From positions 160,001 through 224,000 of the forward strand of contig JBBTCT010000002.1 of assembly GCA_038060895.1 (NCBI GenBank): a stretch of DNA of 64,000 nucleotides, written 5' to 3'. A model generated the notes under the pieces. That model ran no database searches. It was given only the letters and a program-made list of their open reading frames with translations, and was not told the origin of the DNA. Within the stretch, counting starts at the first letter, position 1; every line of letters starts with the position of its first letter. This stretch comes from Planctomycetota bacterium. Its GTDB lineage: Bacteria > Planctomycetota > MHYJ01 > WSZJ01. The translations under genes and the position numbers were made by a program. Below, piece by piece: positions 12,623 through 61,056 of the stretch.

Positions 12623-14020
12623 TCACTGACTGGCGGACTCACCGAACGGCGGGACTCCTGCCTTCGCGCATTCCTCCCGCATCGCCTGCCGCTTCCGCCG
12701 CGCTTCCTCGTCGTAGTGATGAAGCTCCAGGAAGGAAATTCCCTCCAGCCAGAGGCGCCGCGCCTCGTCTGCGCGTCCTTCGCGCAGGCGCATGATGGCG
12801 AGCTCGCACCGGAACGTTCCTGTCGGGTTTCCGCCCTCGACGCGGCTGCTGGCGGCGAAGCACTCCTCGAAACAGCGAAGGGCGTCGGCCGTGCGGTTCG
12901 TGTCGCGATAGAGGCAGGCGAGGTTGCCGAGGGTGAGTGATTCCCAGTGCAGGTCGCCGACTTCGCGGTGGATGGCGAGCGCCTCGAGGTAGCAGGTTTC
13001 AGCCTCTTTCGGGCGGTCGGCGGTCTGGAGGTGGTGGGACAGCGTCGCGCGCGCGACCCCCTCGTACCGCCGGTTGCCGATCTTCCGCAGGAGAACCAGC
13101 GCTTCCTCGAGGGCGTTCAACCCGAGCGCGGGGCGGCCCGTGCCGCGGTAAAGGTTCGCGAGGTTTACGAGGACGACCGGCTCAACGCCCCGGTTTTCCT
13201 CGGACCGGAAGATCTCCAGCGCTTCCTTATAGTGCCTCTCTGCCTCGTCCAGCCGCCCGCTCTCGTAATGCACCATCGCGAGAGACAAAAGAGGCGGTGC
13301 TTCTCCCGCCCGGTCGCCGGAAGCGCGTGCGGCGGCCAGCACTTCGCGGTGGACCCGCTCCGCCTCCTCGAAGCGTCCCTCGTTGATGTCCGCCTGCGCG
13401 AGCCGGGCGCGCGTGTGCAGCTCGGCGCGTCGATCCCCGATTTCGCGGGCGATGGAGAGGGACTGCTGAAGCGCCTCCCGGGACTGCCGCGCGCGGCCGC
13501 TGTTCCCGTAGAGGAGACCGAGGGCATCGAGGGCCGACTGCTCGAGATCCCTGCGTCCCGCGTCCCGGAAAAGCTCACGGGCCTGGAGGAAGAGCTCCTC
13601 AGCCTCGCTGGTGCGGCCGCGAAGGCGGGCTGAGTGGCCTGCGCGACGGAGGGCGGCGCCGCGGGCAGCGCCCGGAACCAGGGCGGCGAGTCGCATCGCA
13701 GCCTCCTGCGCGGTTTCGTGCTGGAACTGGCGCGAAGCGACGTCAATCGCGCGCTGCAGGTAGCGGGATTCGCCGGGGACGTGCGCCGCGCGCACGTGCC
13801 CGGCGAGCTCGAGGGCGAAGGGATCGGTCGGGTGCGGCTGGAAAGGAGGCGGATCGGCGAGGTCGAGCCGCGGAGGATCGGGCGGCGGCCCTCCGCAGAG
13901 TGATTCGAGGACGGCGAACGCGAGGGCGTGGAGTCGCGCGCGGTCGCCGGGGAGCTGCAACTGGTAGGCGGCGTCTCGCAGCAACGCATGCCTGAAAATG
14001 TAGGCGAGGTCGGAATGCAC
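12623..14020 (-). CDS. Stand-alone STAND-derived WHD/arm plus TPR protein (family copy 1)
   Basis: Begins AYIFRHALLRDAAYQLQLPGDRARLH; about six 40-aa MalT-type TPRs; ends ECAKAGVPPF; TAGGAT -10 box 6 nt before GTG. Confidence 0.85.
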   Translation of the reverse strand: MHSDLAYIFRHALLRDAAYQLQLPGDRARLHALAFAVLESLCGGPPPDPPRLDLADPPPFQPHPTDPFALELAGHVRAAHVPGESRYLQRAIDVASRQFQHETAQEAAMRLAALVPGAARGAALRRAGHSARLRGRTSEAEELFLQARELFRDAGRRDLEQSALDALGLLYGNSGRARQSREALQQSLSIAREIGDRRAELHTRARLAQADINEGRFEEAERVHREVLAAARASGDRAGEAPPLLSLAMVHYESGRLDEAERHYKEALEIFRSEENRGVEPVVLVNLANLYRGTGRPALGLNALEEALVLLRKIGNRRYEGVARATLSHHLQTADRPKEAETCYLEALAIHREVGDLHWESLTLGNLACLYRDTNRTADALRCFEECFAASSRVEGGNPTGTFRCELAIMRLREGRADEARRLWLEGISFLELHHYDEEARRKRQAMREECAKAGVPPFGESASQ

Positions 14021-14130
14021 TCCGGAATCCTATGGCGCAGGGCAGGAAAAGCGCTTCCAGTTTCGGGCTACGTTTCCGGGATCGGCCCTGTGCCCGGCTC
14101 TTCGCACACTCTCGTTACTCACCTCCCGCC

Positions 14131-15351
14131 TCAGCGGGGGTTGACTTCCGTCACCGTGAAAGGCAGCGGGTGATCGTGGACGTTCAGGAAAGTTTTCCAG
14201 TTTTCATCCGTGGAGCCCGTGCGGAGATACGTCCGCTTTGCCCCGCCCTTTTCAAATGCGAAGCAGGTTTCGTTTCCGCTCCACGGGACTCCATCGGAAA
14301 CGAACCAGACGGTGCTCACGGTTGCGGTGGCCCCGACAAGGGAATTGTCTTCGTTCATCGTCTTCGCGACCGGCGTGACGATCTGGTACCAGACCTCGTT
14401 CTCCTCCCTGACCTCCTTCTTCCCGAGGTCCTTCCGCGTCAGGACATATTTGTCGGCGAGCACGACGACCTTGTCTTCGCCCGTTCGAAACCACTTCATT
14501 CCCGCCGGCGCCCTGGCTTTGCCGTTTTCCAGATCTGCCAGGCTCGGAGCCGGAAACTGCTCCGTCTGCCCGGGCGTCATCACGGACTCGAAGCGGATAT
14601 CGAAATGGCGGCCGAGTTTTCCTCCGTACCAGGTGAGGCGCCAGCGCATGTCTTTCGACATTTCGTTCTTTGAGGTGACCTGGATGACGCTGAAGTCGCC
14701 ACGGCGCACCACCTTGGCCGTCACGCCTTCGAAGCCGTGCGTTGTCGCGCGTGCGGCCATGGCTTTCGCGGCCTTCTCGAGGTCCGCGGGCTTTGCGTCC
14801 GCCGGCCCTGCGAGGTAGAGCTCATTCGGGTTCGCGGGCGCCTCAGGCTGCACTTTCCCGCCGTCCGCAGGCGGCTCCGGTTTCGGGTCCGGCCTGTCCG
14901 GCCCCGGCGGCGGCTTACCGGACACCTGCGCGTCCCGGCACAGCTTCCGAAGCTCGTGAATCGAGGTCTGCACATCGGCGAACTGCGTCCTGAAATCGGG
15001 ATAGATCTGGATCGCATCCTCCACCTCTACTTCCGGATCGAAGAGAAGCTCCAGCGCCGCCTTCATTTCCGCGTTCGGGTTCGCCGAATTCTTGCCCGCC
15101 TCGTACCTCGCCTTGGCCTTCTCGATATCCCGCCGAAGCTTCTCGATCATGGCTTCCGGCTTCGGGTACACGGTCTTCACGTCGGATTTCTTCACGACGA
15201 GGCCTTCCGGATGCGCCTCGTTCTTGATGCGGAGCGAGTTCCCGAGATCCGTCACTTCCCCGATGTACCGCTCGCCGTTGTTCATCAGGACCGCGTCCGC
15301 GGACACGGAGGCTCCCAGCAAGCCGAGAAAGAGCACGGTGATGATTCTCAT
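14131..15351 (-). CDS. Secreted hypothetical protein (C-terminal region weakly SecD P1-like)
   Basis: Signal peptide followed by ADAVLMNNGERYIGEV, Pro-rich linker, typical codon usage. Confidence 0.65.
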   Translation of the reverse strand: MRIITVLFLGLLGASVSADAVLMNNGERYIGEVTDLGNSLRIKNEAHPEGLVVKKSDVKTVYPKPEAMIEKLRRDIEKAKARYEAGKNSANPNAEMKAALELLFDPEVEVEDAIQIYPDFRTQFADVQTSIHELRKLCRDAQVSGKPPPGPDRPDPKPEPPADGGKVQPEAPANPNELYLAGPADAKPADLEKAAKAMAARATTHGFEGVTAKVVRRGDFSVIQVTSKNEMSKDMRWRLTWYGGKLGRHFDIRFESVMTPGQTEQFPAPSLADLENGKARAPAGMKWFRTGEDKVVVLADKYVLTRKDLGKKEVREENEVWYQIVTPVAKTMNEDNSLVGATATVSTVWFVSDGVPWSGNETCFAFEKGGAKRTYLRTGSTDENWKTFLNVHDHPLPFTVTEVNPR

Positions 15352-15523
15352 CGTGAAGGCCTCGAGAGAAAAGTTCGCGTAGGAAAGATGATAAGCGAAC
15401 GGGGGAGCGAAGCGGACGCGTTCCGGGTGAGATGGAGATTCGTTCCAACCTGCGAATCGAGGTTACCCCTCCTCACCCTTGATCGTTTAGTCTCCAGGCA
15501 GCTGCCGAGGGAGGAAGCGGTTC

Positions 15524-16654
15524 ATGATGGCTCTTCGACTGGTCACCGCAATCGTCGCGTTCGCGGGCGCGTTCTGCGCCACATTTGCCACGCGAGCGAC
15601 GCCGCAGGGCCGCGAAGTCGCCGCGCCCGGAACCAGGAGCCATCCGGCGGCGAGGGCACAAGTCCCGCCGGACGCCTCTCTCGATCCCGCCGCGAGCGAT
15701 CCGCTCGAGCCTCTCCGCCTGCAGGCCAGGTCTCTGCGCAAGCTCACCGGAGCGCTGACGGTGGAGGAGCGCCGCGCGAGGATCGAGGAGTTGCGCCTCC
15801 GCATGCCGGCGCTCATCGAGGCGCGTGACGGAGCCGGGCTCGTTCAGCTGATGAGGGAACTCGCCGCGCTCGGGCCCGACGCGTACGCCGCGGCGCTTCA
15901 GATCGCCCACCTGTTCATCGAACCGGGCGCGGGCGTGACGCGCGTCTTCGGCGTGAGGCTGGAGTGGTTCCGCGAGCACGCGTTTTCGGGCCTCGCGGCC
16001 CCGATGGTGACCTGGGCGATCGAGATGCCGGACCTGGCGCCGCCATGGTTCCGCGGCTTCGCGACCGACCGGCTGGTGCGGCACCGCGGGTGGTGGCCGG
16101 AGCGGAAGAACTGGATGCTCGGCAGGATGCGCGTCGAGGACGACGACGCGGTGGCGCGGATGTTCGGCGAGCGCATCGGGGACTTCGCCGCGATCCGCGA
16201 CATCGAGACACTCGGCGATGTCGCGCGGCGCGCCGACGGACCGGGCGGACGCGCCGGGGCGACGGAAGCGCTCGGTCGCGTGGAGCCGCCGTGGGGCCGG
16301 GGAGAGCTGGAAACGCTGGCTGCAAGCGGGGATCTGGAAGTGAGCGCCGAGGCGAAGCGCTGGCTGGGAGCGGGAGCGCCGGCAGGGACGCGGATCCTCG
16401 ATGTCGCGTTGAATTCGCGCGCGGAGAAGCTCGGCCTGCGGCCGGGCGACGTCGTCCTGAAGATCCAGGGAGAGTCGTCGAGGGGAAAGTGGTCCTCGGA
16501 CTTCCACAAATTTGATTCGAGCAAACACCCCGACGAAGTGGAAGTGATTCGCGGCGGGTCGCGGCTCAAGATCCGGATTCCGAAGGAACTCTGGCGCGAC
16601 GAAGCTCCATGGGGCATCTCGGGGCGGCCGTTCTTCGAGGAGGCCCCGAAATGA
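15524..16654 (+). CDS. Exported helical/HEAT-like protein with C-terminal PDZ-like domain
   Basis: GGAGGA RBS; SRAEKLGLRPGDVVLKIQG...VIRGG PDZ signature. Confidence 0.7.
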   Translation: MMALRLVTAIVAFAGAFCATFATRATPQGREVAAPGTRSHPAARAQVPPDASLDPAASDPLEPLRLQARSLRKLTGALTVEERRARIEELRLRMPALIEARDGAGLVQLMRELAALGPDAYAAALQIAHLFIEPGAGVTRVFGVRLEWFREHAFSGLAAPMVTWAIEMPDLAPPWFRGFATDRLVRHRGWWPERKNWMLGRMRVEDDDAVARMFGERIGDFAAIRDIETLGDVARRADGPGGRAGATEALGRVEPPWGRGELETLAASGDLEVSAEAKRWLGAGAPAGTRILDVALNSRAEKLGLRPGDVVLKIQGESSRGKWSSDFHKFDSSKHPDEVEVIRGGSRLKIRIPKELWRDEAPWGISGRPFFEEAPK

Positions 16655-17793: not shown

Positions 17794-17856
17794 CGGCACG
17801 GCATCTCCCGCCGGGGCGGAGGCTCCCGCGGGTTCTCATTTTTCAGGAGCGATCCG

Positions 17857-21207: not shown

Positions 21208-21255
21208 GGGTGCGTCGGCATTGCCGGCAGGCGCGCCGTGCATTTGGCGCCACGC

Positions 21256-27845: not shown

Positions 27846-27966
27846 GAGCGCGCGAAAAAATCGAGCGCCGTCGCACGCCCAGGCCTCGCATCCCGCCGTC
27901 GGAAAGGCTCGACGGCGGGGCGCGAGGCCCGAGCGCGCGCCGTCGCTCGCTTTTTTCACGCGCTCT
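27845..27966. repeat. 122-bp imperfect inverted repeat (57-bp arms, 8-nt loop)
   Basis: Left arm versus reverse complement of right arm: 48/57 identical by manual alignment. Confidence 0.85.
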
Positions 27967-28140
27967 GGGAAAACGGCCTGCTGAAACAGGGCCACTGAAG
28001 CCAGATGTCCTGCGCCGATTCATGCCGGAACTGCTTCGTCGCGACTTTCGCAGCGCGGCGCAGGTAAAGAGTGAGGACGTCAGAAGTCGCGCCCGGATTC
28101 CCGGCCTCGGGTTCCGAAAGACTCCCGGCGGACTCAGACC
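27956..28140 (-). pseudogene. Remnant of the STAND-derived TPR family
   Basis: Translates to ...LYLRRAAKVATKQFRHESAQDIW, matching LYLRRAAEAGDRNYRHEAARAAW and RYLQRAIDVASRQFQHETAQ of the full copies. Confidence 0.6.
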
Positions 28141-29168: not shown

Positions 29169-30557
29169 TTAATCCGGCTCACGGAAGGGTTCCACCCCCG
29201 CCTTGGCGCACTCTCTTTGCATCGTCGTCATCGCCCTCTTGATCGTCTCGGCATCTCCCAGCGCGCGCAGGATCGCCACCCCCGTCGTCCACGCGCGCCG
29301 GGCGTCGTCGAGGTTTCCGCGCACGAAGTGCAGCCGCGACGAGTCGCAGAGGTGCGCGCCCTCGAACCGCCGGTTGCCGACCTCGTGGTGGATCGCCAGC
29401 GCGCGCTCGAATGCCCCGGCCGCTTCGCCGACCCGGCCGGTGTCGAGGTAGACGCTGGCGAGCGTGCCCTCGACGATGCCTTCGACGCGGCGGTTGCCGA
29501 CCTCGCGGTGGATGGCGAGGGCCTCGAGCGCGATGCGTTCGGCGTCGGCGAAGCGACGCCGGTCGTGCAGGAGGCTGGCGAGGTTGCCGAGGCACATGCC
29601 CTCGGACCGGCGGTTTCCGAGATCGCGAAGGAGGGCCAGCGAGCGGGCATAGGTGGTCTCGGACTCGTCGAAGCGTCCCGCGTGCTGGAGCCGGATGGCC
29701 GCGCTGCTGAGCGCGACGCCCTCGGCGAAGCGGTCGCCGGTTTCGCGATAGATGGCGAGCGCTTCTTCGCCGAGGCGCTCCGCCTCTTCCGCGCGGCCGG
29801 TATCGCCGGCGACGAGCGACAGGTTTCCGATGGCCCTGCCCTCGAGCGGGCGGTCGCCGAGTTCGCGGTAAAGGGCGATGGCGTCGCGGATGAGGCGTTC
29901 GGCTTCGGCCACGCGGCCGAGGTCGTGGCAGAGGCTGGCGAAATTGCCGAGGACGATGCTCTCGAGCGGCCGGTCGGCGGCCTCCCGGGCGAGCGCGAGG
30001 GCCTGCTGGTAGAGGCTCTCCGCCCGGTCGTTGCGTCCGGTCTCGCGGCAAAGGGTCGCGAGGGAAGCGGCGGCCTGGCCTTCGAGGCGGCGGTCGGAGG
30101 CCGCGCGCGCGAGGCGCAGCGCTTCCTCAAACAGGTCCTCCGCGACCCGCGGGCCTCCGCCTGCTTTCACGGACTGGCCCGCCCGTCTCAGCGCTTCGCC
30201 CCGGTCCACCCCTCCAAGTTCCATTGCGAGAGACTGCCAGGCGGCGCGCGCCGCTTCGTGCCGGTAGTTCCTGTCGCCCGCCTCCGCGGCGCGGCGGAGG
30301 TAGAGGCGCCGGGCGCCCTCGAGGCGGGCCGCGCGGGCGTGTTCCGCGAGCTCCGTCGCGAACGGGTCCGTCGCGTGGGTGGCGAACCGGAACGGTTTCC
30401 CGAGTGGAGGCGGCTCGGCCGGACGCCCGCCGCACAGCGCTTCGATCAGCTCGAACGCGAACCCGTGCAGCCGCTCGCGGTCGGTGGGGAGCTGCAACTG
30501 GTACGCGGCGTCCCGCAGGAGCGCGTGTCGGAACAGGTATGCGGACTCAGCTTTCAC
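29169..30557 (-). CDS. Stand-alone STAND-derived WHD/arm plus TPR protein (family copy 2)
   Basis: AYLFRHALLRDAAYQLQLPTDRERLH; 40-aa TPRs G(D/N)RRxEG; ends ECAKAGVEPF; TAGGAT 6 nt before GTG 30557. Confidence 0.85.
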   Translation of the reverse strand: MKAESAYLFRHALLRDAAYQLQLPTDRERLHGFAFELIEALCGGRPAEPPPLGKPFRFATHATDPFATELAEHARAARLEGARRLYLRRAAEAGDRNYRHEAARAAWQSLAMELGGVDRGEALRRAGQSVKAGGGPRVAEDLFEEALRLARAASDRRLEGQAAASLATLCRETGRNDRAESLYQQALALAREAADRPLESIVLGNFASLCHDLGRVAEAERLIRDAIALYRELGDRPLEGRAIGNLSLVAGDTGRAEEAERLGEEALAIYRETGDRFAEGVALSSAAIRLQHAGRFDESETTYARSLALLRDLGNRRSEGMCLGNLASLLHDRRRFADAERIALEALAIHREVGNRRVEGIVEGTLASVYLDTGRVGEAAGAFERALAIHHEVGNRRFEGAHLCDSSRLHFVRGNLDDARRAWTTGVAILRALGDAETIKRAMTTMQRECAKAGVEPFREPD

Positions 30558-30754
30558 GCGCACATCCTACGGGTGATTCCCCCGATCCGAATTCAGTAGA
30601 ATCCTCCCGCATGAGAGCCGCCATTTCCAGAAGCGCCTTCCGGGTGCGAACCGGCCTGCCGCTGCTGGCCTTTCTTGTGCGATTCGGCGTTACGTAAGCG
30701 CGCCCCCACGAATTCCCGGAACTGAAGTCCCTTGCGTGGTCACTTCCCCGGCGT

Positions 30755-31159
30755 TCAGGCTGGCCCCGCTTCGAGTGACGGCTCTCCCGCCTTCTGGCAG
30801 GCGGCCTGCATGTCGCCGCGCAGGGACTCGGCCGCCTGATCGTCATGCAGTTCCGTGAGGACTTTCATGCCCTGGCGCCAGTTCTCGGCGGCTTCGCGCC
30901 TTCGACCCATCGCCAGCAGGCAGAGGGCGTAGCTGCAGTTGTGGATTCCTTCGAAGCGTCTGTTCCCCAGCTGACGGTGGATCGACAGAGCGTGTTGAAA
31001 GGTGCGTTCCGCCTGCTCGAGGCGGCCTGTCTCGGCAAATAGACTGGCCAGGTTTCCCAGCGCGACCCCCTCGCTCTGGCGGTCGCCGGGCAGCTGCAGC
31101 TGGTAGGCAGCCTCGCGCAGGAGCGCGTGTCGGAAGACGTAGGTGTTTTCGGCGTTCAC
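30755..31159 (-). CDS. Internally deleted mini-copy of the TPR family (copy 3)
   Basis: YVFRHALLREAAYQLQLPGDR joined in frame directly to the last TPRs and the ACQKAG tail. Confidence 0.7.
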   Translation of the reverse strand: MNAENTYVFRHALLREAAYQLQLPGDRQSEGVALGNLASLFAETGRLEQAERTFQHALSIHRQLGNRRFEGIHNCSYALCLLAMGRRREAAENWRQGMKVLTELHDDQAAESLRGDMQAACQKAGEPSLEAGPA

Positions 31160-31714: not shown

Positions 31715-32620
31715 TTACTTCAGCACCCGCCGCCCGGCCCGCCGCGCGCCCTCCTGGCTCCGCTCGACGAAGAGCTCGAATAACTCGTGAAGCGGCCGCG
31801 CCGCTTCCGCGCCCTCGAGGCGCTCGACCGCGTGCGCGATCGACTCGAGCGTCGCCATGCCGAAGGAGGGCCCCGTGCGGAGGCGCGCCGTCGGTGGATG
31901 CGGCGGCAGCGAGAGCCGTGGAAGGTGCTGCAGCGCGGGCACGCGCAGGAACATCCGCTTCGACTCGCGCCACGTTCCGTCGATCACCACGACCGTCGCG
32001 GGCCCCGGGGCACCCTCCGGGAGCGGATCGGCCCCGGGGTACAGGACCCACGCCCCCGGCGGCGGCTCGAATTCCATCCGGCTGTCCCGCTCGGCCCTGT
32101 CAGCCAGCTCGCAGTTCGTCATCGCCAGCGCCGCAATCCGCGCCGAATTCGTGCGGCGCCGCGACTCGTGCTCGTGGCGCAGAATGACGAAGCGCGTCCG
32201 GGTCTCGATGCGCCTGACGTCGCCGCAGAGGCACAGCGGCAGATCCAGGCGGCACCGCTCGCAGATCGGAGGCGTCGCCGCTACGCCGGCGCGCCGCCAC
32301 TTCTCTGCCAGGCGCTCCAGCGCCGCGGTCTCGCCGGCCTGAAGGAGAAGCGACGCGCCCCGCGCGTGGCACTTCCGCGCCTCGTTGATCTTCCCCAGCT
32401 CCAGCAGTGCCGCGCCGAATTCTCCCAGGCGGAGGCCTTTGAGTCGCAGCGCCGCACCGCGCGTCGCGGGCGGTTCCGTTGAAGCGGGTGTCCGCCGTCC
32501 CAGGAGGTCGTCCAGCAGCGACTGCGCGTGCGCGAGAAGTCGCGCGCGCTCCGGCGAAATGCGGTCGTCCGCGGCGTCGAGCAGGGGAGGGTGTCGAAGC
32601 GGATCGGGGGCCCGGTTCAC
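31715..32620 (-). CDS. DTW-domain tRNA-uridine aminocarboxypropyltransferase (TapT-like) with an N-terminal TPR-family-derived extension
   Basis: CxRC...CLC, HxxExxxxTNS, IDGTW, ATLE motifs; GTG 32620 overlaps the GNAT stop. Confidence 0.85.
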   Translation of the reverse strand: MNRAPDPLRHPPLLDAADDRISPERARLLAHAQSLLDDLLGRRTPASTEPPATRGAALRLKGLRLGEFGAALLELGKINEARKCHARGASLLLQAGETAALERLAEKWRRAGVAATPPICERCRLDLPLCLCGDVRRIETRTRFVILRHEHESRRRTNSARIAALAMTNCELADRAERDSRMEFEPPPGAWVLYPGADPLPEGAPGPATVVVIDGTWRESKRMFLRVPALQHLPRLSLPPHPPTARLRTGPSFGMATLESIAHAVERLEGAEAARPLHELFELFVERSQEGARRAGRRVLK

Positions 32621-33150
32621 GGGCGCGTTGTCCCCAGCGATATCCAGTACCGCCGCTTCCGCACGGCCTGGCCGGGCACTTCCACCGTGTTTTCCAGCAC
32701 GCCGCCGCAGGACTCGATAACTTTCCACGAGCCCACGTTGTCGTCGTCGCACGTCAGGAGAAGCCTGTCGATCCCGCAGGCGCGGACGAGCGGAAGAGTC
32801 TGCCTCAACATCTCGCGGGCGTAGCCTCGCCGGCGGAACGAAGGGACGACGCCGTATCCGACGTGGCCGCCGATGCGAAGGAGGAAGTCGTTCAGGCGGT
32901 GGCGAAATGAAACCCGCCCCACCCCGGCGCCGTCCACGACCCCGACGAGAAACGTGCTCGGGACGTAATTCTCGGGCAGCTCTTCGCCGCGCGTCCAGGC
33001 GGCCAGCCTCCGGACGTACGCCGGGAAATCGGTCACCCCGTCGAAGAAAAACGCGAAAGCCCACTCGGGATCGGAGACCCTGAACTCCTCGACGGCCTTT
33101 CGAAAGGAGGGCTCGTCGGAATCGGTCAGTTCGCGAAGCACCAGGGGCAA
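32617..33150 (-). CDS. GNAT N-acetyltransferase
   Basis: RHRLNDFL..GGHVGYGVVPSFRRRGYA, LLTCDDDNVGSWKVIESCGG; AGGAG RBS then TTG. Confidence 0.9.
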   Translation of the reverse strand: MPLVLRELTDSDEPSFRKAVEEFRVSDPEWAFAFFFDGVTDFPAYVRRLAAWTRGEELPENYVPSTFLVGVVDGAGVGRVSFRHRLNDFLLRIGGHVGYGVVPSFRRRGYAREMLRQTLPLVRACGIDRLLLTCDDDNVGSWKVIESCGGVLENTVEVPGQAVRKRRYWISLGTTRP

Positions 33151-33287
33151 GAAGGGGATTCTCCTGAGAAACGAGCGCGGGCACGGAACAGTCTCGCTTG
33201 AGGCGCTCCGGAATTGAAACGAATAGACGGAAGGCCGGAGTCCGCGGCCTCTGCGGCAACAGCCCGGGCGAAAGACGCTTCCGTCGC

Positions 33288-34700
33288 TCAGCCGGTATTC
33301 CCATCGAACGCCGTCACGGAAGCCTTCGCGCACGCCGAGCGCATGTCACCGCGGAGGCGCTCAACTTCACCGGCGTCGCCCAGGCCCACGAGGATCGCGA
33401 AGTTCTCGCGCCAGAGCGCGGAGGCTTCAGCGACCAGTCCCCGCGCCAGGAGGCACAGAGCGAGCGCGCAGCCGTGGCTTCCCTCGGAATTCCTGTTCCT
33501 CACCACCCGGTGCAGGACGAGGGCGCTTTCCAGGAAGCGCTCCGCGAGGTCCGGCCGGCCGGAAGCGAGATGCAGCATGCCCATGTGTCCCAGGGCGATT
33601 CCCTCGAAGCGGCGGTCGCCGACGTCGCGGTAGATCGGAAGCGCCTCTTCGTACGTCCGCAGGCTCTGCGCGATGTCGCCCCGGGCGTTGTGCAGGAACG
33701 CGCGCAGGCCCAGGCAGTATCCCTCGGATCGCCGATGGCCGGTCCGGCGGTGAATATCGAGCGCCTGCGCGCAGGTCCGCTCGGCCAGTTCCATCCGGCC
33801 GAGTTGCGCGTACAGGCTGGCCAGGCTGCCCACGATGACGCCCTCCGAACGGAGGTCCCCTGTCTCGCGGAAATACGCCACCGTCTCGAGGTAGGTCTGT
33901 TCCGACAACTCGAGCCGGCCCGTCTGCCGGTACAGGCTCGCCGCGTTGACGAGCGTCGAAGCCGTGTACTGGCGGTCACCGACTTCGCGCAGGATCGCGA
34001 GCGCCTGGTCAAAACTCCTCTCGGCCTCCGCCAGCCGCCCGGTTTCTTCGTACAGGACCGCGAGCGCGCCGAGGTCGATCCCCTCGGAGCGCCGGTTGCC
34101 GACGCTCCGGTGAATCTCAATCGCCCGCCGCAGCATTTCCTCCGCTTCCGGCATCCGTCCCGCAGCCTTCTGCCGCCCCGCGAGGTCGCCGAGCGTCACA
34201 CCCTCCCGGCGCACGTCCCCGCTCCGACGAAACTGCTCCAGCGCTTCCTTCAGCAGATCCACAGATTCCTGCGTTCTGCCGAGGGCGTAGGCGCTCAGCC
34301 CGGCGCGGCGAAGCGACTCGGCGCGGTCCGCCTCGACGGCGATCGCGGCCAGTTCTTTCCAGAACGTGCAGCCTGCGTCGAGCCGCAACGAAGCATCCGC
34401 GGTCTCAGCGGCGCGGCGCAGGTAGGCGACGAGCGCGCCGCCGTGCCCGTCGACGGATGCGCCGGACCGGCGCAGGTGCGCGACCAGCTCTTCCGCGAAC
34501 GGATCCGTCGCGTGTTTCGGGAAGAAGGGAGGCGCCGCACAGTTCAGCGGAGGTGGCTCGGGCGGGCGGCCTCCCGCGAGCGCTTCGATCGCCTCAAAGG
34601 CATGGGCATGAAGCCGCGCTCGGTCGCCGGGGAGCTGGAGCTGGTACGCGGCGTCGCGGAGAAGGGCGTGTCTGAAAATGTAGGCGTTTTCGGCGTGCAG
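33288..34700 (-). CDS. Stand-alone STAND-derived WHD/arm plus TPR protein (family copy 4), CTG start
   Basis: Frame extends upstream of the track's TTG to CTG-HAENAYIFRHALLRDAAYQLQLPGDRARLH; TAAACT 7 nt upstream; no ATG/GTG/TTG before the upstream stop. Confidence 0.8.
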   Translation of the reverse strand: MHAENAYIFRHALLRDAAYQLQLPGDRARLHAHAFEAIEALAGGRPPEPPPLNCAAPPFFPKHATDPFAEELVAHLRRSGASVDGHGGALVAYLRRAAETADASLRLDAGCTFWKELAAIAVEADRAESLRRAGLSAYALGRTQESVDLLKEALEQFRRSGDVRREGVTLGDLAGRQKAAGRMPEAEEMLRRAIEIHRSVGNRRSEGIDLGALAVLYEETGRLAEAERSFDQALAILREVGDRQYTASTLVNAASLYRQTGRLELSEQTYLETVAYFRETGDLRSEGVIVGSLASLYAQLGRMELAERTCAQALDIHRRTGHRRSEGYCLGLRAFLHNARGDIAQSLRTYEEALPIYRDVGDRRFEGIALGHMGMLHLASGRPDLAERFLESALVLHRVVRNRNSEGSHGCALALCLLARGLVAEASALWRENFAILVGLGDAGEVERLRGDMRSACAKASVTAFDGNTG

Positions 34701-53250: not shown

Positions 53251-53288
53251 GAGCTGCCAGCGGCCCGTCGCCAGTGAAAGTCAACGAA

Positions 53289-54446
53289 TCAGCTTCTGCG
53301 CGGACGCCGCTGGGCAAAACGGGGCTTCGCATCCGGCGGTGCAGTCGGCTGCACCGGCGCGGGAGCAGCGGCCGGCGCCGGATGCCAGAGCTCCCAGACG
53401 CAGCGCTCGAGGACCATGGCGAAATCGGCCGGGGTGGCGAACCGATGCGCCCGGTCTTTCTGCAGCGCGCACGCGACGGCGTTCGCCGTCGCGAACGACA
53501 CCGCGGGATTCACCTGGTTGACCAGCGGCGGCACCTGATGGAGGTGCTGCTTGAGCACATCGTTGACCGTGTCGCCCGCGAAGGGCGGGCCGCCGGTCAG
53601 GAGGTGGAAGAGCGTCGCGCCGAGCGAGTAGACGTCGCTTCGGATGTCGATGTCTCCCGTGCCGCGCACCTGTTCGGGGGACATGTAGGCCGGCGTGCCG
53701 GTGAGCGCGCCGTCGGCGCCGCCGCCCTGGGTCACGGCGATCCCAAGGTCCGCGAGCTTCGCGGCGCCGTTGCGCGCGATCAGGATGTTGCCGGGCTTCA
53801 CGTCGCGGTGGACGAGCCCGTTCTCGTGGGCGTGCTGAAGCGCTTTCGCGATCTGGATCGCAACTCCGAGCGCGTAGCGTTCGTCGAGCGGGCGGCCGGG
53901 TTGCAGGAGCCCGCGAAGCGTCGCCCCTTCGACGAATTCCATGACGAAGTAGTGCACGCCGTTGGCGCACCCCACGTCGATTCCCTGCACGACGTTCGGA
54001 TGCGACAGTCGCGCCACGACCCGCGCTTCACGAACGAACTTCGACACGATGTCCGCCTTTTCGGCGAGTCGCGGATGCAGGATCTTGAGCGCGACCACCC
54101 GGTCCATCGAGATCTGCACGGCGCGCAGCACGCGGCCGGATTGCCCGCGCCCGATCTCCTCGTGGAGGCGGTAGCCAGGAATCTCGAGCACATCCTCGGC
54201 GGCCGACTGGACTTTTTTCACGACCGCGGCCTGCGCCGGGGAGATCCATCCCCTCACGATGAGCAGTTCGCCAAGCCGTACCGCCAGCGTCCCGCCCGCC
54301 TGCAGGTTCTGCTGGATGGCCAGCGCTTCATTCAGGCGTTCCTTCGTGATGAAACCCAGCCGGACCGCCACAGCGCCGAATTGTTGATCCGGACGCGGCG
54401 GCGTAGCCGGTTGCTTTGAATCCGACGGCCCGGGCGCGGGTTTCAT
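53289..54446 (-). CDS. Hanks-type Ser/Thr kinase with N-terminal MshEN-like motifs
   Basis: GRGQSG, VALK, HRDVKPGN, DLG, GTPAYMSPE, SDVYSLG; N-terminal FGxxAVRLGFIT...ALAIQ and RLGELLIVRGWIS. Confidence 0.92.
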   Translation of the reverse strand: MKPAPGPSDSKQPATPPRPDQQFGAVAVRLGFITKERLNEALAIQQNLQAGGTLAVRLGELLIVRGWISPAQAAVVKKVQSAAEDVLEIPGYRLHEEIGRGQSGRVLRAVQISMDRVVALKILHPRLAEKADIVSKFVREARVVARLSHPNVVQGIDVGCANGVHYFVMEFVEGATLRGLLQPGRPLDERYALGVAIQIAKALQHAHENGLVHRDVKPGNILIARNGAAKLADLGIAVTQGGGADGALTGTPAYMSPEQVRGTGDIDIRSDVYSLGATLFHLLTGGPPFAGDTVNDVLKQHLHQVPPLVNQVNPAVSFATANAVACALQKDRAHRFATPADFAMVLERCVWELWHPAPAAAPAPVQPTAPPDAKPRFAQRRPRRS

Positions 54447-54471
54447 TCCTCGCGAGTGTAGCTGTTTGCGC

Positions 54472-58085: not shown

Positions 58086-58090
58086 GAGTT

Positions 58091-58130
58091 GCGGAGGCTG
58101 GCAGAGGCTGGCGGAGGCTGGCGGAGGCTG
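58091..58130. repeat. 10-bp tandem repeat (GC(G/A)GAGGCTG)x4
   Basis: gcggaggctg gcagaggctg gcggaggctg gcggaggctg. Confidence 0.9.
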
Positions 58131-58194
58131 AGCCGGGTTGCTGGTCGGCGCTTTCGCTTCTTTCCTCACCTTTCCCCCTTTATCGTTAGCGGCG

Positions 58195-59541
58195 ATGAAC
58201 ATTGCCGCCGTGATTCTTGCCGCTGGACAGGGCGTCCGGATGAAGTCCGACCGGGCGAAGGTCCTGCATGAGGTGTGCGGGAAGACCCTCCTGGCGCACG
58301 TCCTCGACGCGGTGCGGACGCTCAAGCCCGACCCGCTCATCGTCGTCGTCGGGCAGGGCGCCGAGGAAGTGAAGGCGGAGTTCAAGGGCGAGAAGGTGAC
58401 CTGGGTCGAGCAGAAGGAACGGCGCGGGACGGGACACGCGTTGGCTCAGGCCGAAGCGGCGCTCAACGGATTCACGGGGCGGCTTTTCGTCCTCTGCGGC
58501 GACGCGCCGCTCGTGCGGGCGGAGACGCTGGAAGCGCTGGGCCGTGCCGCGAACGGCCGCGTCGCGACGGTGCTGACCTGCGAGGTCGAGGACGCTTCCG
58601 GCTACGGCCGGATCATCCGCGGCTCCAAGGGGGACGTCACGCGGATTGTGGAGCACCGGGACGCCACGGAGGAGGAGCGCGAGATCCGGGAGATCAACAG
58701 CGGCGGGTACGCGTTCGACGCGCCGGCGGTCTTTGACGCAGTGCGTCAATTGAAGCCGGCCAACGCACAGGGGGAGTACTACCTGACGGACGTGCTGCCG
58801 GTCATGATGAAGAAGGGACGCCTCGGCGCCTGCGTCGCGGAGGATCCCGCGGAAGTGCTTGGCGTCAACTCCCGCCGCGACCTCGCGCTCGCCACTTCAA
58901 AAATGCGCGACCGCATCCTCCGCCAGCACATGGACGCGGGCGTCACCATCGTCGCGCCCGACCTCACGTTCATCGAGTGCGGCGTCGAGATCGGCGCCGA
59001 CACGGTCATTGAGCCCTTCACCGTCATCCGCAGCGGCGTGAAGATCGGCTCGCACTGCGAAGTCGGCCCCTTCTGCCAGCTCCGCGCCGGGGCGGTGCTC
59101 GAGGACCACGCCGAGGTCGGCAATTTCGTCGAGATGAAAAAGTCCCGCCTCGGCTCGCACTCAAAGGCGAAACACCTCTCCTACCTCGGCGACGCCACCA
59201 TCGGCGCACGCGTCAACATCGGCGCCGGCACCATCACCGCCAACTACGACGGCGTGAACAAGCACCCGACGGTCATCGAGGACGGCGCTTCCACCGGCAG
59301 CCACACGGTCTTGGTCGCGCCCTCAACCATGAAGAAGGGCTCGAAGACCGGCGCCGGAGCCGTCGTGACACGGAAGACGATGGCGGAGGGTGAGACATGG
59401 GTCGGCGTCCCGGCTCGCCCGCTCGCCCGCGCGCCCGCGCGCCCGCCTTCCCCAAGTCCCGACAAACCGTTGACCACGCCTCCTGCCCGCAAGACACTCA
59501 TCGCCCCAGTTTCCAAGAAACGGAGCGGCCCGCGTGCGTAA
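58195..59541 (+). CDS. glmU: Bifunctional UDP-GlcNAc pyrophosphorylase/glucosamine-1-phosphate acetyltransferase
   Basis: ILAAGQGVRMKS, GTGHA, GYGRIIR, EINSG, GEYYLTD, GNFVE, HLSYLGDA, NYDG. Confidence 0.95.
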   Translation: MNIAAVILAAGQGVRMKSDRAKVLHEVCGKTLLAHVLDAVRTLKPDPLIVVVGQGAEEVKAEFKGEKVTWVEQKERRGTGHALAQAEAALNGFTGRLFVLCGDAPLVRAETLEALGRAANGRVATVLTCEVEDASGYGRIIRGSKGDVTRIVEHRDATEEEREIREINSGGYAFDAPAVFDAVRQLKPANAQGEYYLTDVLPVMMKKGRLGACVAEDPAEVLGVNSRRDLALATSKMRDRILRQHMDAGVTIVAPDLTFIECGVEIGADTVIEPFTVIRSGVKIGSHCEVGPFCQLRAGAVLEDHAEVGNFVEMKKSRLGSHSKAKHLSYLGDATIGARVNIGAGTITANYDGVNKHPTVIEDGASTGSHTVLVAPSTMKKGSKTGAGAVVTRKTMAEGETWVGVPARPLARAPARPPSPSPDKPLTTPPARKTLIAPVSKKRSGPRA

Positions 59542-60475
59542 GAAGGAATTCCAGATCTTCGCAGGCACTTCGAACCCCTCGCTCGCCAAGGCCGTTTCGA
59601 AGGCGCTCAACCTCGACCTCTCCAACGTCGACCTGAGCCGCTTCCCCGACGGCGAGATTGACGTGAAGATCCAGGACGACGTGCGAGGCTCGGACGTTTT
59701 CATCGTGCAGTCCACGTGCCCGCCGGTGAACGAGAATCTGATGGAGCTGCTGATCATGATCGACGCGCTCCGGCGCGCGTCCGCGATGCGCATCACCGCG
59801 GTCATCCCGTACTTCGGGTACGCGAGGCAGGACCGCAAAGCCGAAGGCCGCGTCCCGATCAGCGCCAAGCTCGTCGCCAACCTCATCACCCGCGCCGGCG
59901 CCGACCGCGTCCTCACCATGGACCTCCACGCCGCGCAGATCCAGGGGTTCTTCGACATCCCGGTGGACCACCTCTACAGCTCGCCCGTGATCATCGACTA
60001 CCTGAAAAAGAAGGACCTGGGAAAACTCTGCGTCCTGTGCTGCGACGTCGGCGGCGCGAAGATGGCGAGGGCGTACGCGAAGAGGCTTGGGGGTGCCGCG
60101 CTGGCGATCATCGACAAGCGGCGCACCGGCCCGAGCGAGACCGAGGTCGCGGAAGTCATCGGAAGCGTCGAGGGCATGGACGTCGTGGTCGTGGACGACA
60201 TGATCTCGACGGGGACGTCGATCGCGGAAGCAGCGCGGGTCGCGCGGGAGCGCGGGGGCAGAAGCGTGAGGATGACCGCCACCCACGCGGTGCTTTGTGG
60301 CAAGGCGCTCGAGAAGATCGAGAAGAGCGGGTGCGAGGAACTCGTCGTCACCGACTCGATCCCGATCACCGGGAAAGAGCGCCCGTGGCTCAAGCAGCTT
60401 TCGGTCGCGCCGCTGCTCGCGGAAGCGATTCACCGTATCCATAAGAGCGAATCGGTGAGCAGTCTGTTCGTGTGA
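59534..60475 (+). CDS. prs: Ribose-phosphate pyrophosphokinase
   Basis: FPDGE, PYFGYARQDRK, DLHAAQIQGFFDIP, VDDMISTG, ATHAV, SVSSLF. Confidence 0.97.
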   Translation: MRKKEFQIFAGTSNPSLAKAVSKALNLDLSNVDLSRFPDGEIDVKIQDDVRGSDVFIVQSTCPPVNENLMELLIMIDALRRASAMRITAVIPYFGYARQDRKAEGRVPISAKLVANLITRAGADRVLTMDLHAAQIQGFFDIPVDHLYSSPVIIDYLKKKDLGKLCVLCCDVGGAKMARAYAKRLGGAALAIIDKRRTGPSETEVAEVIGSVEGMDVVVVDDMISTGTSIAEAARVARERGGRSVRMTATHAVLCGKALEKIEKSGCEELVVTDSIPITGKERPWLKQLSVAPLLAEAIHRIHKSESVSSLFV

Positions 60476-60513
60476 ACGCGAACGGCGGGTCTCACCCAGT
60501 ACGGTGCCCCCGC

Positions 60514-61056
60514 ATGACGTCCGCCGAGACGGCCTACCAGTTCCGTCACGCGCTCCTGCGCGATGCCGCTCCGCTTCTGCGCCTCGGGGCCGACGTGCTG
60601 CGGCGCTCGGGGCGACCGAGGGAATCGGAAGGGCTGCTCACGCAGTCGCTGGCGCGGGCGCGGAGAGCCGGGGACCGCCTCCTGGAGGGCAGGGCGGTAC
60701 AGGAGCTGGCGACGATCTGGAGGGAAACCGGCCGCACGGCGGAGGCGGAGGAAGGATTCGGGCGGGCCCTGGCGATCCATCGCGAGGTCGGCGACCGGAC
60801 GGGAGAAGCCATGGGACTGGCGAACCTGGCGATCGTGTACCGGACGATGGGCCGGATGGCGCCGGCCGAGGAGCTGCTCCGGGGTGCCGTGAAGCTCTTC
60901 CGGCAGATGAAATCCCGGCGGCAGGAGGGTGTCGTGCTGTCGAACCTGGCGATCGTTCTGAAGATCACGGGACGCCTTCCGAAATCCTTCACGAACTCTG
61001 CCAGCGCCGACTCGCTTGCCCTGCTTCGGCGCGCGCGCGCATACTCGCCTGCGTGA
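60514..61056 (+). pseudogene. Truncated, internally deleted TPR-family copy (copy 5)
   Basis: MTSAETAYQFRHALLRDAA joined to about three TPRs, lacking the CAKAG tail; TACGGT 8 nt before ATG. Confidence 0.7.

What the first reader, a model, noticed from the sequence alone, without database searches (positions are those of the whole stretch)
12623..61056. Expanded family of ATPase-less STAND/NLR-like sensor modules (candidate new system)
Seen: at least seven relatives in 64 kb: full copies at 12623-14020, 29169-30557 and 33288-34700; deleted copies at 30755-31159 and 60514-61056; a remnant at 27956-28140; and a fusion at 31715-32620. The intact starts begin a few residues before YxFRHALLR(D/E)AAYQLQLPxDR(xRLH), continue with a PPxPP..HxTDPFAxEL linker and 40-aa TPRs, and end in CxKA(G/S). 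The N-terminal motif is conserved in protein with many synonymous DNA changes, while TPR helix-A residues vary strongly. Known: YxFxHAL.RDAAY...RxxLH is the winged-helix/arm segment following the AAA_16 ATPase in adenylate-cyclase/MalT-type STAND proteins. Inference: a dispersed library of independently expressed sensor halves that dock in trans on a separate ATPase (a split NLR), act as decoys, or donate sequence for sensor swapping.
Basis: partly seen in the sequence, partly recalled or inferred. Interest (0 to 1): 0.85.

Follow-up and report, generated by a model that had tools for sequence, protein, structure and literature searches.

The report
Split cyclase-ATPase with many separate sensors
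A groundwater bacterium seems to have cut an NLR-like signalling enzyme in two, keeping one copy of the cyclase-ATPase engine and spreading more than fifty different sensor halves around its genome, each apparently able to plug back into that engine.

Summary
The window's genome (5.4 Mb, Planctomycetota-like) holds 53 intact, 6 truncated and a few remnant genes. All start 8-11 codons before an almost invariant YLFRHALLRDAAYQLQLPGDRARLH, followed by a Pro-rich loop, 40-residue TPRs and a CxKAG cap. No ATPase remains lie upstream. The genes have their own start codons. 23 of 47 carry a -10 box 4-9 nt before the start, which suggests leaderless mRNAs. Seven tandem junctions overlap by 4 nt. dN/dS on the motif is about 0.06.

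The predicted partner exists. A single-copy 825-aa protein elsewhere in the genome (two cyclase domains plus a P-loop NOD) stops inside the winged-helix hairpin loop, exactly where the sensor genes begin. It ends at the same point in 6 of 7 sister species. Its nearest full-length relatives (1100-1450 aa) are tiled by the two pieces. A complex model docks the sensor N-terminus onto the truncated winged helix (ipSAE 0.71; controls 0.00). A cNMP-binding Ser/Thr kinase gene lies head-to-head with it.

My reading is a naturally split soluble-adenylyl-cyclase-like STAND with a multigene sensor library. Binding and expression remain untested.

The parts
12623..14020 (-). Intact sensor-half gene ('class A'), 465 aa: N-terminal winged-helix strand with His motif, Pro-rich loop, arm helices, 40-aa TPRs, CAKAG cap
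   Evidence: TPR_12 and TPR_MalT only; nothing on the first 100 aa; N-terminal profile E 2.8e-49, cap E 7.5e-23; AF2 model with pLDDT 92.9
14027..14032 (-). TAGGAT, a -10-like box ending 6 nt before the GTG start of the 12623-14020 gene (leaderless-type promoter)
29169..30557 (-). Intact sensor-half gene, 462 aa from the GTG at 30557 (an alternative GTG lies at 30563)
   Evidence: (N-terminal profile E 4.6e-50, cap E 6.2e-27)
30564..30569 (-). TAGGAT, a -10-like box ending 6 nt before the GTG at 30557
30755..31159 (-). Internally deleted copy, 134 aa: the motif (profile positions 1-35) is joined in frame to the last TPR and the cap; GTG start kept
33288..34700 (-). Full-length copy (470 aa) without a canonical start codon at the family's start position (CTG at 34700); either it is expressed from CTG or it is a recently disabled copy
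   Evidence: (N-terminal profile E 2.6e-50)
32285..32446 (-). Relic of the family's C-terminal cap, in frame upstream of a DTW domain (ORF 31715-33304; DTW at aa 346-515)
   Evidence: (cap profile positions 4-61, E 2.3e-6); weak motif relic at about 32450-32596 (30 bits)
27992..28093 (-). Remnant of the arm region (profile positions 84-117)
   Evidence: E 4.8e-7
60472..61056 (+). Truncated copy (194-aa ORF overlapping the end of the prs gene by 4 nt): degenerate motif at 60520-60594, then two to three TPR units, no cap
   Evidence: TPR_12 66 bits; N-terminal profile positions 2-26, E 9e-6

Best explanation
The window copies belong to a genus-specific multigene family of sensor subunits of a naturally split STAND (NLR-like) adenylyl/guanylyl cyclase.

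Origin. An ancestral soluble-adenylyl-cyclase-like protein (two cyclase domains, a P-loop NOD, a winged helix, an arm and TPRs) was cut in the flexible loop of the winged-helix beta-hairpin.
- The N-terminal piece survives as one gene per genome. In this genome it is G000:C15:117788-120265, 825 aa, here called P0126 or 'the chassis'.
- The C-terminal piece starts with the second hairpin strand, the conserved His and the next helix, followed by the arm and a peptide-binding TPR solenoid. It became an independently expressed gene, often leaderless, and multiplied to about 53 intact diverged paralogues.

Inferred mechanism.
1. Each sensor docks on the chassis by strand complementation. This completes the winged helix and supplies the His latch over the nucleotide pocket.
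2. Ligand binding in the hypervariable TPR groove then controls the ADP/ATP switch and hence cyclase output.
3. The cyclic nucleotide is read by the cNMP-binding Ser/Thr kinase encoded head-to-head with the chassis.

What is shown and what is inferred. Shown: the gene structures, their conservation, the tiling on fused relatives and the co-distribution. Modelled only: docking. Inferred: ligand control, sharing of one chassis by many sensors, and the kinase as the reader of the signal.
For: Family and expression signals
- 84 motif loci in the genome. Of these, 53 are intact ORFs of 414-588 aa whose lengths step by 40 aa, and 6 are truncated.
- 47 of 53 have ATG/GTG/TTG 8-11 codons before the Phe.
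- 23 of those 47 have TAnnnT ending 4-9 nt before the start (16 at exactly 6 nt), against 0.67% of random genomic positions.
- 7 tandem junctions overlap by 4 nt.
- In 87 of the 114 motif-bearing public homologues (120 examined), the Phe is at residue 9-12. None has more than 80 residues upstream.

Selection
- Motif pS 0.553 and pN 0.056.
- Paralogues are 26-59% identical, median 43%.

Partner
- P0126 has Guanylate_cyc (2 stretches) and AAA_16. It ends '...SQREGVLIPADGPQTAAAKS*'.
- Orthologues in 6 of 7 sister genomes are 72-86% identical. All end at the same point, with different stop codons and no motif within 1.5 kb downstream.

Tiling on fused relatives
- Nearest relatives outside the orthologue cluster are at most 41% identical and 1100-1450 aa long.
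- P0126 residues 24-816 align to P0130 residues 1-765. Sensor residue 3 onwards aligns to P0130 residue 772 onwards.
- These fused relatives read 'AExAYLFRHALMxxAAYHLxLPSxRAxLH'.
- On NCBIfam TIGR03903, P0126 stops at profile position 814 and the sensor starts at 829.
- In 57 fused relatives the invariant motif residues F, H, Y and H are the same ones that are invariant in the sensors.
- A quick ML tree separates the genome's own full-length cyclase-STANDs by a 100% branch from the sensors plus the fused family.

Structure
- In the AF2 model of the fused relative, the hairpin is E761-763 and E775-778, with a loop of pLDDT below 50 at 766-772. That loop is the cut site.
- In the sensor modelled alone, residues 1-20 have pLDDT 53-61, while the rest of the protein is above 90.

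Complex model
- ipSAE 0.70, 0.71 and 0.72. The best of 3 controls scored 0.00.
- The tool's pass mark was reached by 58 of 80 solved complexes and 2 of 110 mismatched pairs.
- Runs share at least 87% of contacts, and partner pLDDT is at least 86.
- The interface joins sensor residues 3-22, 27, 30-38 and 41 with P0126 residues 770-792, 803 and 810-817, and with P-loop residues 463-464.

Distribution
- Sensors are found in 7 of 7 genomes of the genus (13-72 matches each) and in 0 of 23 genomes of other genera.
- The chassis is found in 6 of 7 genus genomes. Among the 23 others there is only one hit, at 27% identity.

Output
- The divergent neighbour of P0126 is Pkinase + cNMP_binding.
- It is conserved beside the chassis in G002, G004 and G007 at 75-84% identity.
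- It is one of only 8 cNMP_binding matches in the genome.
Against: - No experiment or direct read-out shows binding. The complex job joins the halves of a split gene, which the tool warns can pass simply because it resembles the intramolecular arrangement of fused relatives. The job also used my own alignments and a riding ADP, which lie outside the tool's calibration.
- One sister genome (G006, 85% complete) has 32 sensor matches but no chassis orthologue in its assembly.
- More than fifty sensors would share one chassis. Only one sensor copy lies near the chassis in G000 and G002. None was found in the fetched flank of G004.
- The kinase was not found in the fetched upstream flanks of G001 and G005.
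- Transcription evidence is thin. RNA-library contigs identical to parts of P0126, the kinase and the neighbouring sensor exist at depth about 1-2. The matching DNA run is just as patchy, and DNA carry-over cannot be excluded.
- The genome also has 15 full-length cyclase-STANDs with a related motif. The sensors could act on those instead.
- The sensor alone folds confidently, apart from its first 20 residues.
- Equating the motif His with the MHD-latch His is by position, not by superposition. Here the His is followed by Ala, not Asp.
Confidence: 0.58

Rival explanations
1. Orphaned TPR adaptors. The sensor halves descend from the split gene but no longer contact the chassis. They work as free peptide-binding TPR scaffolds. 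The N-terminal motif is kept for another partner or as a structural cap. P0126 is simply a sensor-less cyclase, regulated or constitutive, comparable to the truncated isoform of mammalian soluble adenylyl cyclase.
For: - The sensor alone gives a confident solenoid model, with LGN/Pins-type TPRs as its nearest folds.
- The copies are dispersed among housekeeping genes.
- G006 has sensors but no detected chassis.
- Truncated soluble adenylyl cyclase is active without its C-terminal part (passages of PMC12802110).
Against: - The most conserved part of 53 paralogues is exactly the fragment that is meaningless without a NOD: a hairpin strand and the nucleotide-pocket His. It has dN/dS about 0.06, and it is the least confident part of the stand-alone model.
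- The winged-helix remainder of the chassis is almost invariant across the genus.
- The complex model passes its controls, with the interface at the expected place.
Confidence: 0.2
2. Inhibitors or decoys. The sensor halves bind NOD modules, either P0126 or the 15 full-length cyclase-STANDs of the genome. They act as latch donors or dominant-negative competitors that hold the cyclases off or buffer them, rather than as activating receptors.
For: - A chassis without the His latch would be expected to be autoactive. In AfsR and plant NLRs, mutating the latch gives constitutive activity (passages of bioRxiv 10.64898/2026.09.02.748808). A trans-supplied latch would therefore be inhibitory.
- The full-length paralogues carry a related motif.
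- N-terminally truncated plant NLRs that antagonise full-length neighbours are on record (search listing and abstract only, 10.1101/2021.01.27.428547).
Against: - Simple inhibition does not explain hypervariable groove positions next to a conserved Asn ladder, or the species-specific repertoires.
- With many redundant inhibitors, losing one would not release the chassis.
- The sensors group with the chassis's family, not with the full-length paralogues.
Confidence: 0.14
3. Silent cassettes or pseudogenes. The copies are 5'-truncated relics, or unexpressed donors that are recombined or gene-converted onto an expression locus to swap sensors.
For: - A few copies are damaged: 6 truncated, some remnants, and one window copy without a canonical start.
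- The copies sit in arrays.
Against: - 53 intact ORFs despite saturated synonymous divergence.
- A conserved start position, -10 boxes in 23 of 47 genes, and 4-nt overlaps.
- No decayed ATPase upstream.
- No fused chassis-sensor locus in any of the 7 genomes that hold the chassis.
- No DNA site shared between the chassis 3' end and the sensor 5' ends.
- No 120-bp tandem DNA repeats.
- Paralogues are at most 59% identical, which is too diverged for homologous exchange.
Confidence: 0.03

Closest known systems
Soluble-adenylyl-cyclase (ADCY10)-type proteins and their bacterial relatives: two cyclase domains, a STAND P-loop module, then TPRs, in one polypeptide of 1100-1450 aa
   Same: - P0126 has the two cyclase homology domains and the NOD.
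- The fused relative P0130's best solved match by sequence is ADCY10 (E 4.3e-16).
- 2498 library representatives match P0126 at E below 1e-30, and nearly all of the best 150 are 1100-1500 aa.
- Full-length mammalian soluble adenylyl cyclase is described as C1-C2 plus a predicted STAND domain with a P-loop (passages of PMC12802110).
- The sensors continue these relatives from the winged-helix strand onward.
   Different: Here the polypeptide is cut in the winged-helix hairpin loop. The C-terminal half is a separate gene family of about 53 members per genome, carrying an inserted Pro-rich loop and its own CxKAG cap. No protein of 815 aa or more with the sensor-type N-terminus was found (weak evidence by the tool's own warning).
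MalT/AfsR-type bacterial STAND regulators with TPR or SUPR sensors and the MHD-like latch
   Same: - The order NOD, winged helix, arm, TPR is the same. TPR_MalT and AfsR profiles hit the sensors below their cut-offs.
- A conserved His at the end of the winged helix is the autoinhibitory latch in AfsR and plant NLRs (passages of bioRxiv 10.64898/2026.09.02.748808).
   Different: In those proteins the latch and the sensor are covalently joined to the ATPase. Here they sit on a different polypeptide from the P-loop. The motif reads F-R-H-A rather than F/Y-H-D.
Sensor/helper NLR networks (plant NRC network; animal NAIP-NLRC4) and truncated plant NLRs
   Same: The logic is the same: many diversified sensors feed one or a few executors, and the sensor repertoire is fast-evolving and species-specific. 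Truncated NLR genes that modulate full-length ones are on record (listings and abstracts).
   Different: Those sensors are complete NLRs with their own ATPase, or truncations of other kinds. Here the sensors have no ATPase at all and are predicted to complete the fold of a single ATPase. The NRC and NAIP comparison, and the trans-complementation of Rx fragments, are recalled from memory and come from no call.
LGN/Pins-type 40-residue TPR peptide-binding domains
   Same: They are the best structural matches of the sensor model (Foldseek E about 1e-9, 3sf4, 6hc2, 4a1s). The sensors have a conserved Asn in helix A, flanked by variable positions on the same helix face.
   Different: Sequence identity is only about 19%. 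There is no STAND-derived N-terminus in LGN. That LGN's Asn ladder binds the peptide backbone is recalled, not tested here.

Membership tests
STAND / NLR-like NTPase (for the sensor genes themselves) | P-loop NTPase domain (AAA_16, NB-ARC or NACHT) in the polypeptide | tested here: not met
   Pfam finds only TPR families in 4 of 4 sensor copies. NOD queries align to sensor loci only from the motif onward, and upstream extensions contain stops. None of the 114 motif-bearing public homologues has more than 80 residues upstream of the motif.
STAND / NLR-like NTPase (for the sensor genes themselves) | Winged-helix segment with the conserved His, followed by an arm and a repeat sensor | tested here: met
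   The motif aligns to residues 772-800 of the fused relative P0130, which form hairpin strand E775-778 and helix 781-789. The same F, H, Y and H are invariant in 57 fused relatives and in 43 sensors. TPR_12 scores 118-129 bits. Only the last strand of the winged helix is present, not the whole domain.
STAND / NLR-like NTPase (for the chassis P0126) | P-loop NOD with helical and winged-helix domains | tested here: met
   AAA_16 scores 43.7 bits, above the 32.6 cut-off. P0126 aligns to 1100-1450-aa STAND relatives over residues 24-816. The winged helix lacks its second hairpin strand.
STAND / NLR-like NTPase (for the chassis P0126) | C-terminal repeat sensor in the same polypeptide | tested here: not met
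   The stop codon falls in the hairpin loop in 7 of 7 orthologues. The next gene encodes an ECF-sigma/PDZ protein.
ADCY10-like double-cyclase STAND family | Two tandem class III cyclase homology domains N-terminal to the NOD | tested here: met
   Guanylate_cyc matches in 2 stretches and two matches at C15:119045-120124. ADCY10 is the best PDB sequence match of the fused relative. Catalytic competence was not tested.
NCBIfam TIGR03903 (TOMM system kinase/cyclase fusion protein) | Score above the curated cut-off (705.75 bits) | tested here: not met
   P0126 scores 67 bits, the sensor 29.5 bits and P0130 161 bits. The profile was used only as a ruler for where the two pieces lie.
Known anti-phage defence systems (PADLOC, including Avs and Pycsar) | Match to a system-specific model beyond generic domains | tested here: inconclusive
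   Only generic matches were found: PycC cyclase models on the cyclase domains of P0126 (best E 2.5e-17), a generic 'TPR' model on the sensors, and kinase models on the neighbour. There was no Avs model and no defence-island context in the window.
Leaderless genes | -10 hexamer (TAnnnT) about 6-7 nt upstream of the start codon, with no Shine-Dalgarno leader | tested here: met
   23 of 47 genes have the box, 16 at exactly 6 nt, against a 0.67% background. Transcription start sites were not measured. That this spacing marks leaderless genes is recalled knowledge.

The most novel reading that the evidence does not exclude
This is a germline-encoded, combinatorial receptor system in a bacterium. 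More than fifty interchangeable, rapidly diversifying TPR sensor subunits compete for or take turns on one cyclase-ATPase chassis. Each inserts a beta-strand and the nucleotide-latch His into the chassis's incomplete winged helix. Many unrelated ligands, whether the cell's own or foreign peptides, are thereby funnelled into one cyclic-nucleotide and kinase output. It would be a prokaryotic counterpart of sensor/helper NLR networks, achieved by splitting a single NLR-like protein.
Probability: 0.45. Interest if true: 0.9.

Novelty: new variant of a known kind. Interest (0 to 1): 0.82.

Why it matters
STAND/NLR proteins are treated as single-chain switches in which sensor, latch and ATPase are covalently coupled. 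A natural system that puts the latch and sensor on a separate polypeptide, and then expands that polypeptide into a diverged library, would have three consequences.

1. It would show that the NLR switch can be assembled from parts.
2. It would give a simple handle for studying how sensor occupancy is passed to the nucleotide pocket, because sensors could be mixed and matched on one chassis.
3. It would offer a template for engineering modular receptors with a cyclic-nucleotide read-out.

It also bears on the little-understood C-terminal STAND region of soluble adenylyl cyclase (ADCY10). Finally, it explains about 1.5% of the coding capacity of this uncultured genus, currently annotated only as 'tetratricopeptide repeat protein'.

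Tried and rejected
- **Decayed ATPase upstream of the copies.** Rejected. NOD queries from the 15 full-length paralogues align to sensor loci only from query position about 329-336, which is the motif. The few longer alignments are low-identity and cross stop codons. Long open frames upstream of five copies carry no Pfam domain (3 of the 5 were tested). They look like the chance open frames of a 66% GC genome.
- **Operon of sensor, two small ORFs and chassis.** Rejected. The 193- and 210-aa ORFs between them are antisense frames of a + strand kinase gene.
- **Recombination-cassette model.** Rejected.
- **Fused form in public proteins.** None of 514 long candidates scored. The tool itself calls this weak evidence.
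- **Independent splits in other lineages.** Two library proteins (P0160, 794 aa; P0259, 803 aa) end at or just before the same motif. The nearest genomic relative of P0160 (73% identical) is a fused 1263-aa gene. These are therefore probably fragments, and the question is unresolved. P0259 was not followed up.
- **L014** (C20:50418-51968, NOD-only, 516 aa). It keeps its own motif and ends 55 residues after it, so it is not the complementary partner.
- **RNA evidence.** Metatranscriptome-library contigs cover parts of the chassis locus with no differences but at depth about 1-2. The tool warns that DNA may be present in such libraries. I treat this only as a hint. Parts of the locus without cover say nothing.
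- **G006.** No chassis orthologue was found with the whole protein or with its last 400 residues. The assembly is 85% complete, so absence is not shown.
- **Tree.** Only the quick ML tree finished. The careful search did not, and the root is arbitrary.
- **Not done.** Codon-model per-site dN/dS was not run, because synonymous sites are saturated between paralogues.
- **Literature.** Searches for a split STAND/NLR with trans sensors and 'find' look-ups in PMC13581612 and PMC7159879 turned up no description of such a system. The only related passage was a passing mention that 'split proteins' had their adjacent sequences analysed in an Avs7/Dsr1 survey. Only passages were read, and supplements were not consulted, so cases tabulated there could have been missed.

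Full report
**1. The observation**

The window is G000:C2:160001-224000 of a 5.42-Mb, 47-contig, 66% GC assembly.

On the minus strand I confirm:
- two intact genes, 12623-14020 and 29169-30557;
- a third full-length copy, 33288-34700, which lacks any ATG/GTG/TTG at the family's start position and begins with CTG;
- an in-frame internally deleted copy, 30755-31159;
- a remnant at 27992-28093;
- a cap relic at 32285-32446, in frame upstream of a DTW domain.

On the plus strand there is a truncated copy inside ORF 60472-61056.

Pfam sees only TPR families in these proteins and nothing on their first 100 residues.

**2. Size and shape of the family**

tblastn with the first 60 residues finds 84 loci in the genome. 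They fall into two classes.

*Class B: 15 loci.*
- The motif reads 'LPGDxxxxFRHALLRDAAYSLLxKxxRxRLH'.
- It sits inside ORFs with 515-1011 codons upstream.
- Six of six tested are Guanylate_cyc + AAA_16 + TPR proteins.

*Class A: 53 intact copies (414-588 aa), 6 truncated copies and some remnants.*
- The motif reads '(M)xAExAYLFRHALLRDAAYQLQLPGDRARLH'.
- 47 of 53 have a start codon 8-11 codons before the Phe.
- Several have an in-frame stop only 11-12 codons upstream.
- Lengths step by 40 residues, which is one TPR unit.
- The 60 loci lie at 33 places: 21 singletons and 12 clusters of 2-6. Seven tandem junctions overlap by 4 nt.
- No NOD homology lies upstream of any class A locus.

**3. Are they real, independently expressed genes?**

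- Over the 25-codon motif, 1378 pairs of copies give mean pS 0.553 (saturated) and mean pN 0.056. The ratio is about 0.06, and Arg codons use both AGA and CGN.
- Whole proteins are 26-59% identical, median 43%. The family is therefore old, yet 53 frames are intact.
- A TAnnnT box ends 4-9 nt before the start codon in 23 of 47 genes (16 at exactly 6 nt). The same is true of 0.67% of random genomic positions. By recalled knowledge this spacing is the signature of leaderless transcripts that begin at the start codon. Both intact window genes have TAGGAT at this spacing.
- Other copies follow the preceding copy directly. Four share a CT-rich leader.
- Of 120 public homologues examined, 114 carry the motif. 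In 87 of those the Phe is at residue 9-12, and none has more than 80 residues upstream.
- Direct RNA evidence is weak (see Tried and rejected).

**4. The missing half**

I looked among all NOD-like loci for one that stops before the motif. There is exactly one: G000:C15:117788-120265, 825 aa (P0126).
- It has two cyclase homology stretches and an AAA_16 NOD.
- It ends '...KHASILGVRFLANVLGELLKRSGAVKRSLDDLLLESQREGVLIPADGPQTAAAKS*'.
- The next gene encodes an unrelated ECF-sigma/PDZ protein.
- It is the only member of its subfamily in the genome.
- It has single-copy orthologues in 6 of 7 other species of the genus, at 72-86% identity. All end at the same point after 'EGVLxxA' plus a short variable tail. 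They use different stop codons, and no motif lies within 1.5 kb downstream.

**5. Rosetta-stone evidence**

Against 1.84 billion representatives, the nearest protein to P0126 (69% identical, 802 aa) has the same truncated end. All the next relatives (at most 41% identical) are 1100-1450 aa.
- In P0130, residues 1-765 align to P0126 residues 24-816.
- Residues 772 onward align to the window sensor from its residue 3.
- These fused relatives read 'AEAAYLFRHALMRDAAYHLHLPSARACLH' at the junction. This is the class A type of motif, not the class B type.
- On the independent NCBIfam profile TIGR03903, P0126 ends at position 814 and the sensor begins at position 829. All scores are below the cut-off, so the profile serves only as a ruler.
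- The same four motif residues (F, H, Y, H) are invariant in 57 fused relatives and in 43 sensors.
- A quick ML tree of the 150 residues after the motif splits class B off on a 100% branch. It groups 52 of 53 class A copies (support 93) beside the fused family (support 89). The careful search did not finish and the root is arbitrary.
- The fused family resembles soluble adenylyl cyclase. ADCY10 is the best solved match by sequence. Full-length ADCY10 is described as C1-C2 plus a predicted STAND domain (passages of PMC12802110).

**6. Where the cut lies**

- In the AF2 model of fused P0130 (pLDDT 88.3), the winged helix ends in a hairpin: strand 761-763, a loop with pLDDT below 50 at 766-772, and strand 775-778 ('AYLF'). 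Helices 781-789 and 793-810 follow.
- The genus's chassis ends in that loop, and the sensors begin in it.
- In the stand-alone sensor model (pLDDT 92.9), the first 20 residues are the least confident (pLDDT 53-61), even though they are the most conserved part of the family.

**7. Docking model**

I submitted P0126 residues 430-825 (7-row alignment), a riding ADP and a whole sensor (43-row alignment) to the complex predictor.
- ipSAE was 0.70, 0.71 and 0.72. All three controls scored 0.00.
- The tool's pass mark was reached by 58 of 80 solved complexes and 2 of 110 mismatched pairs.
- Runs share at least 87% of contacts, and partner pLDDT is at least 86.
- The confident interface joins sensor residues 3-22, 27, 30-38 and 41 with chassis residues 770-792, 803 and 810-817 (the final strand), and with P-loop residues 463-464.
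- This is what strand complementation over the nucleotide pocket would look like.

Caveats. These are halves of a split gene, so the pass may only reflect the intramolecular arrangement learned from fused relatives. My alignments and the ligand also lie outside the tool's calibration. The model supports binding but does not show it.

**8. Distribution and tempo**

- The sensor N-terminus is found in 7 of 7 genomes of the genus (13-72 matches each) and in 0 of 23 genomes of 19 other genera of the same order or class, at E no greater than 1e-8.
- The chassis type is found in 6 of 7 genus genomes. Among the other 23 there is only one hit, at 27% identity.
- G006 (85% complete) has sensors but no detected chassis.
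- The chassis is 72-86% identical between species. The best match of a window sensor in five sister genomes is only 46-48% identical, no better than its paralogues.
- At the position beside the chassis, the G000 and G002 sensors are 48% identical, while the flanking genes are 84-93% identical. Synteny there is imperfect, because G002 has an extra gene.
- Within the 40-residue unit, the framework positions and Asn12 are conserved. Positions 5, 8, 15, 17-19, 23 and 29 have entropies of about 2.9-3.3 bits.
- The nearest folds are the peptide-binding LGN/Pins TPRs.

**9. Output**

- Head-to-head with P0126 lies a 460-aa Ser/Thr kinase with a C-terminal cNMP-binding domain.
- It is one of 8 cNMP_binding matches in the genome.
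- It is conserved beside the chassis in G002, G004 and G007 at 75-84% identity. It was not found in the fetched flanks of G001 and G005, and G003 has no flank.
- The genome also carries 32 cyclase-domain matches, so cyclic-nucleotide signalling is extensive here.
- PADLOC gives only generic hits, and the window's neighbours are housekeeping genes. I therefore cannot say whether the system serves immunity or ordinary signalling.

**10. Verdict**

Its leading interpretation, a split NLR-like protein with a dispersed sensor library, is supported by the discovery of the complementary, conserved, single-copy cyclase-ATPase. Docking, ligand control and expression remain to be shown. My literature searches found no description of a STAND whose latch and sensor are encoded as an expanded separate gene family. 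I rate it a new variant of a known kind, of high interest.

Noticed in passing
G000:C15:120364-121743 (+), outside the window (L015:7365-8747): A Ser/Thr protein kinase with a C-terminal cyclic-nucleotide-binding domain. It is divergently transcribed from the truncated cyclase-ATPase and is conserved beside it in three sister genomes.
   Followed up: partly
G000:C20:50418-51968 (L014): A 516-aa NOD-only protein (AAA_16 27.9 bits, below the cut-off). It keeps its own 'LLFRHDLLREAA' motif and stops 55 residues after it, so it is a second sensor-less STAND of a different kind.
   Followed up: partly
window 31715-33304 (-): The DTW-domain gene (tRNA-modification family by Pfam) has about 340 upstream in-frame codons that include relics of a sensor gene's cap and motif. 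Its true start was not determined.
   Followed up: partly
G000 genome-wide, e.g. C16:88150-88280 and C6:41040; none in the window: A short dispersed repeat, CCCTTCGACTCGCT(T/C)CGCTCGCTCAGGGC. Its 12-base core has 42 hits. It occurs in tandem directly upstream of, and running into the first codons of, the sensor gene at C16:88279. It also lies upstream of several other copies that lack a canonical start.
   Followed up: partly
G000:C5:111800-111840, C5:117330-117368, C24:139973-140010, C35:63235-63270: Four sensor genes share a G-poor leader, 'CTCAAYACTCC..ACT(Y)CCG', immediately before ATG. They lack the -10 box seen at other copies, so this may be a different expression mode.
   Followed up: no
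public protein P0027 (798 aa): A sensor-type module (motif near the N-terminus, then TPRs) fused to a C-terminal APH-type phosphotransferase domain (Pfam APH 128.6 bits, residues 533-764).
   Followed up: partly
L015:2703-4721 (-), the gene downstream of the chassis: A 672-aa ORF combining ECF sigma regions 2 and 4, a hydrophobic segment and a weak C-terminal PDZ match. A TACCAT box lies just before its ATG, which suggests leaderless starts are common in this organism.
   Followed up: no
window 53289-54446 (-) and genome-wide: tblastn with one kinase finds over 100 Ser/Thr kinase loci in the genome. There are also 32 cyclase-domain matches. This is an unusually large signalling complement for 5.4 Mb.
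   Followed up: no
L015:4717-4837: One RNA-library contig joins opposite strands here, just past the chassis stop codon. It may be a hairpin or terminator snap-back, or an assembly artefact.
   Followed up: no
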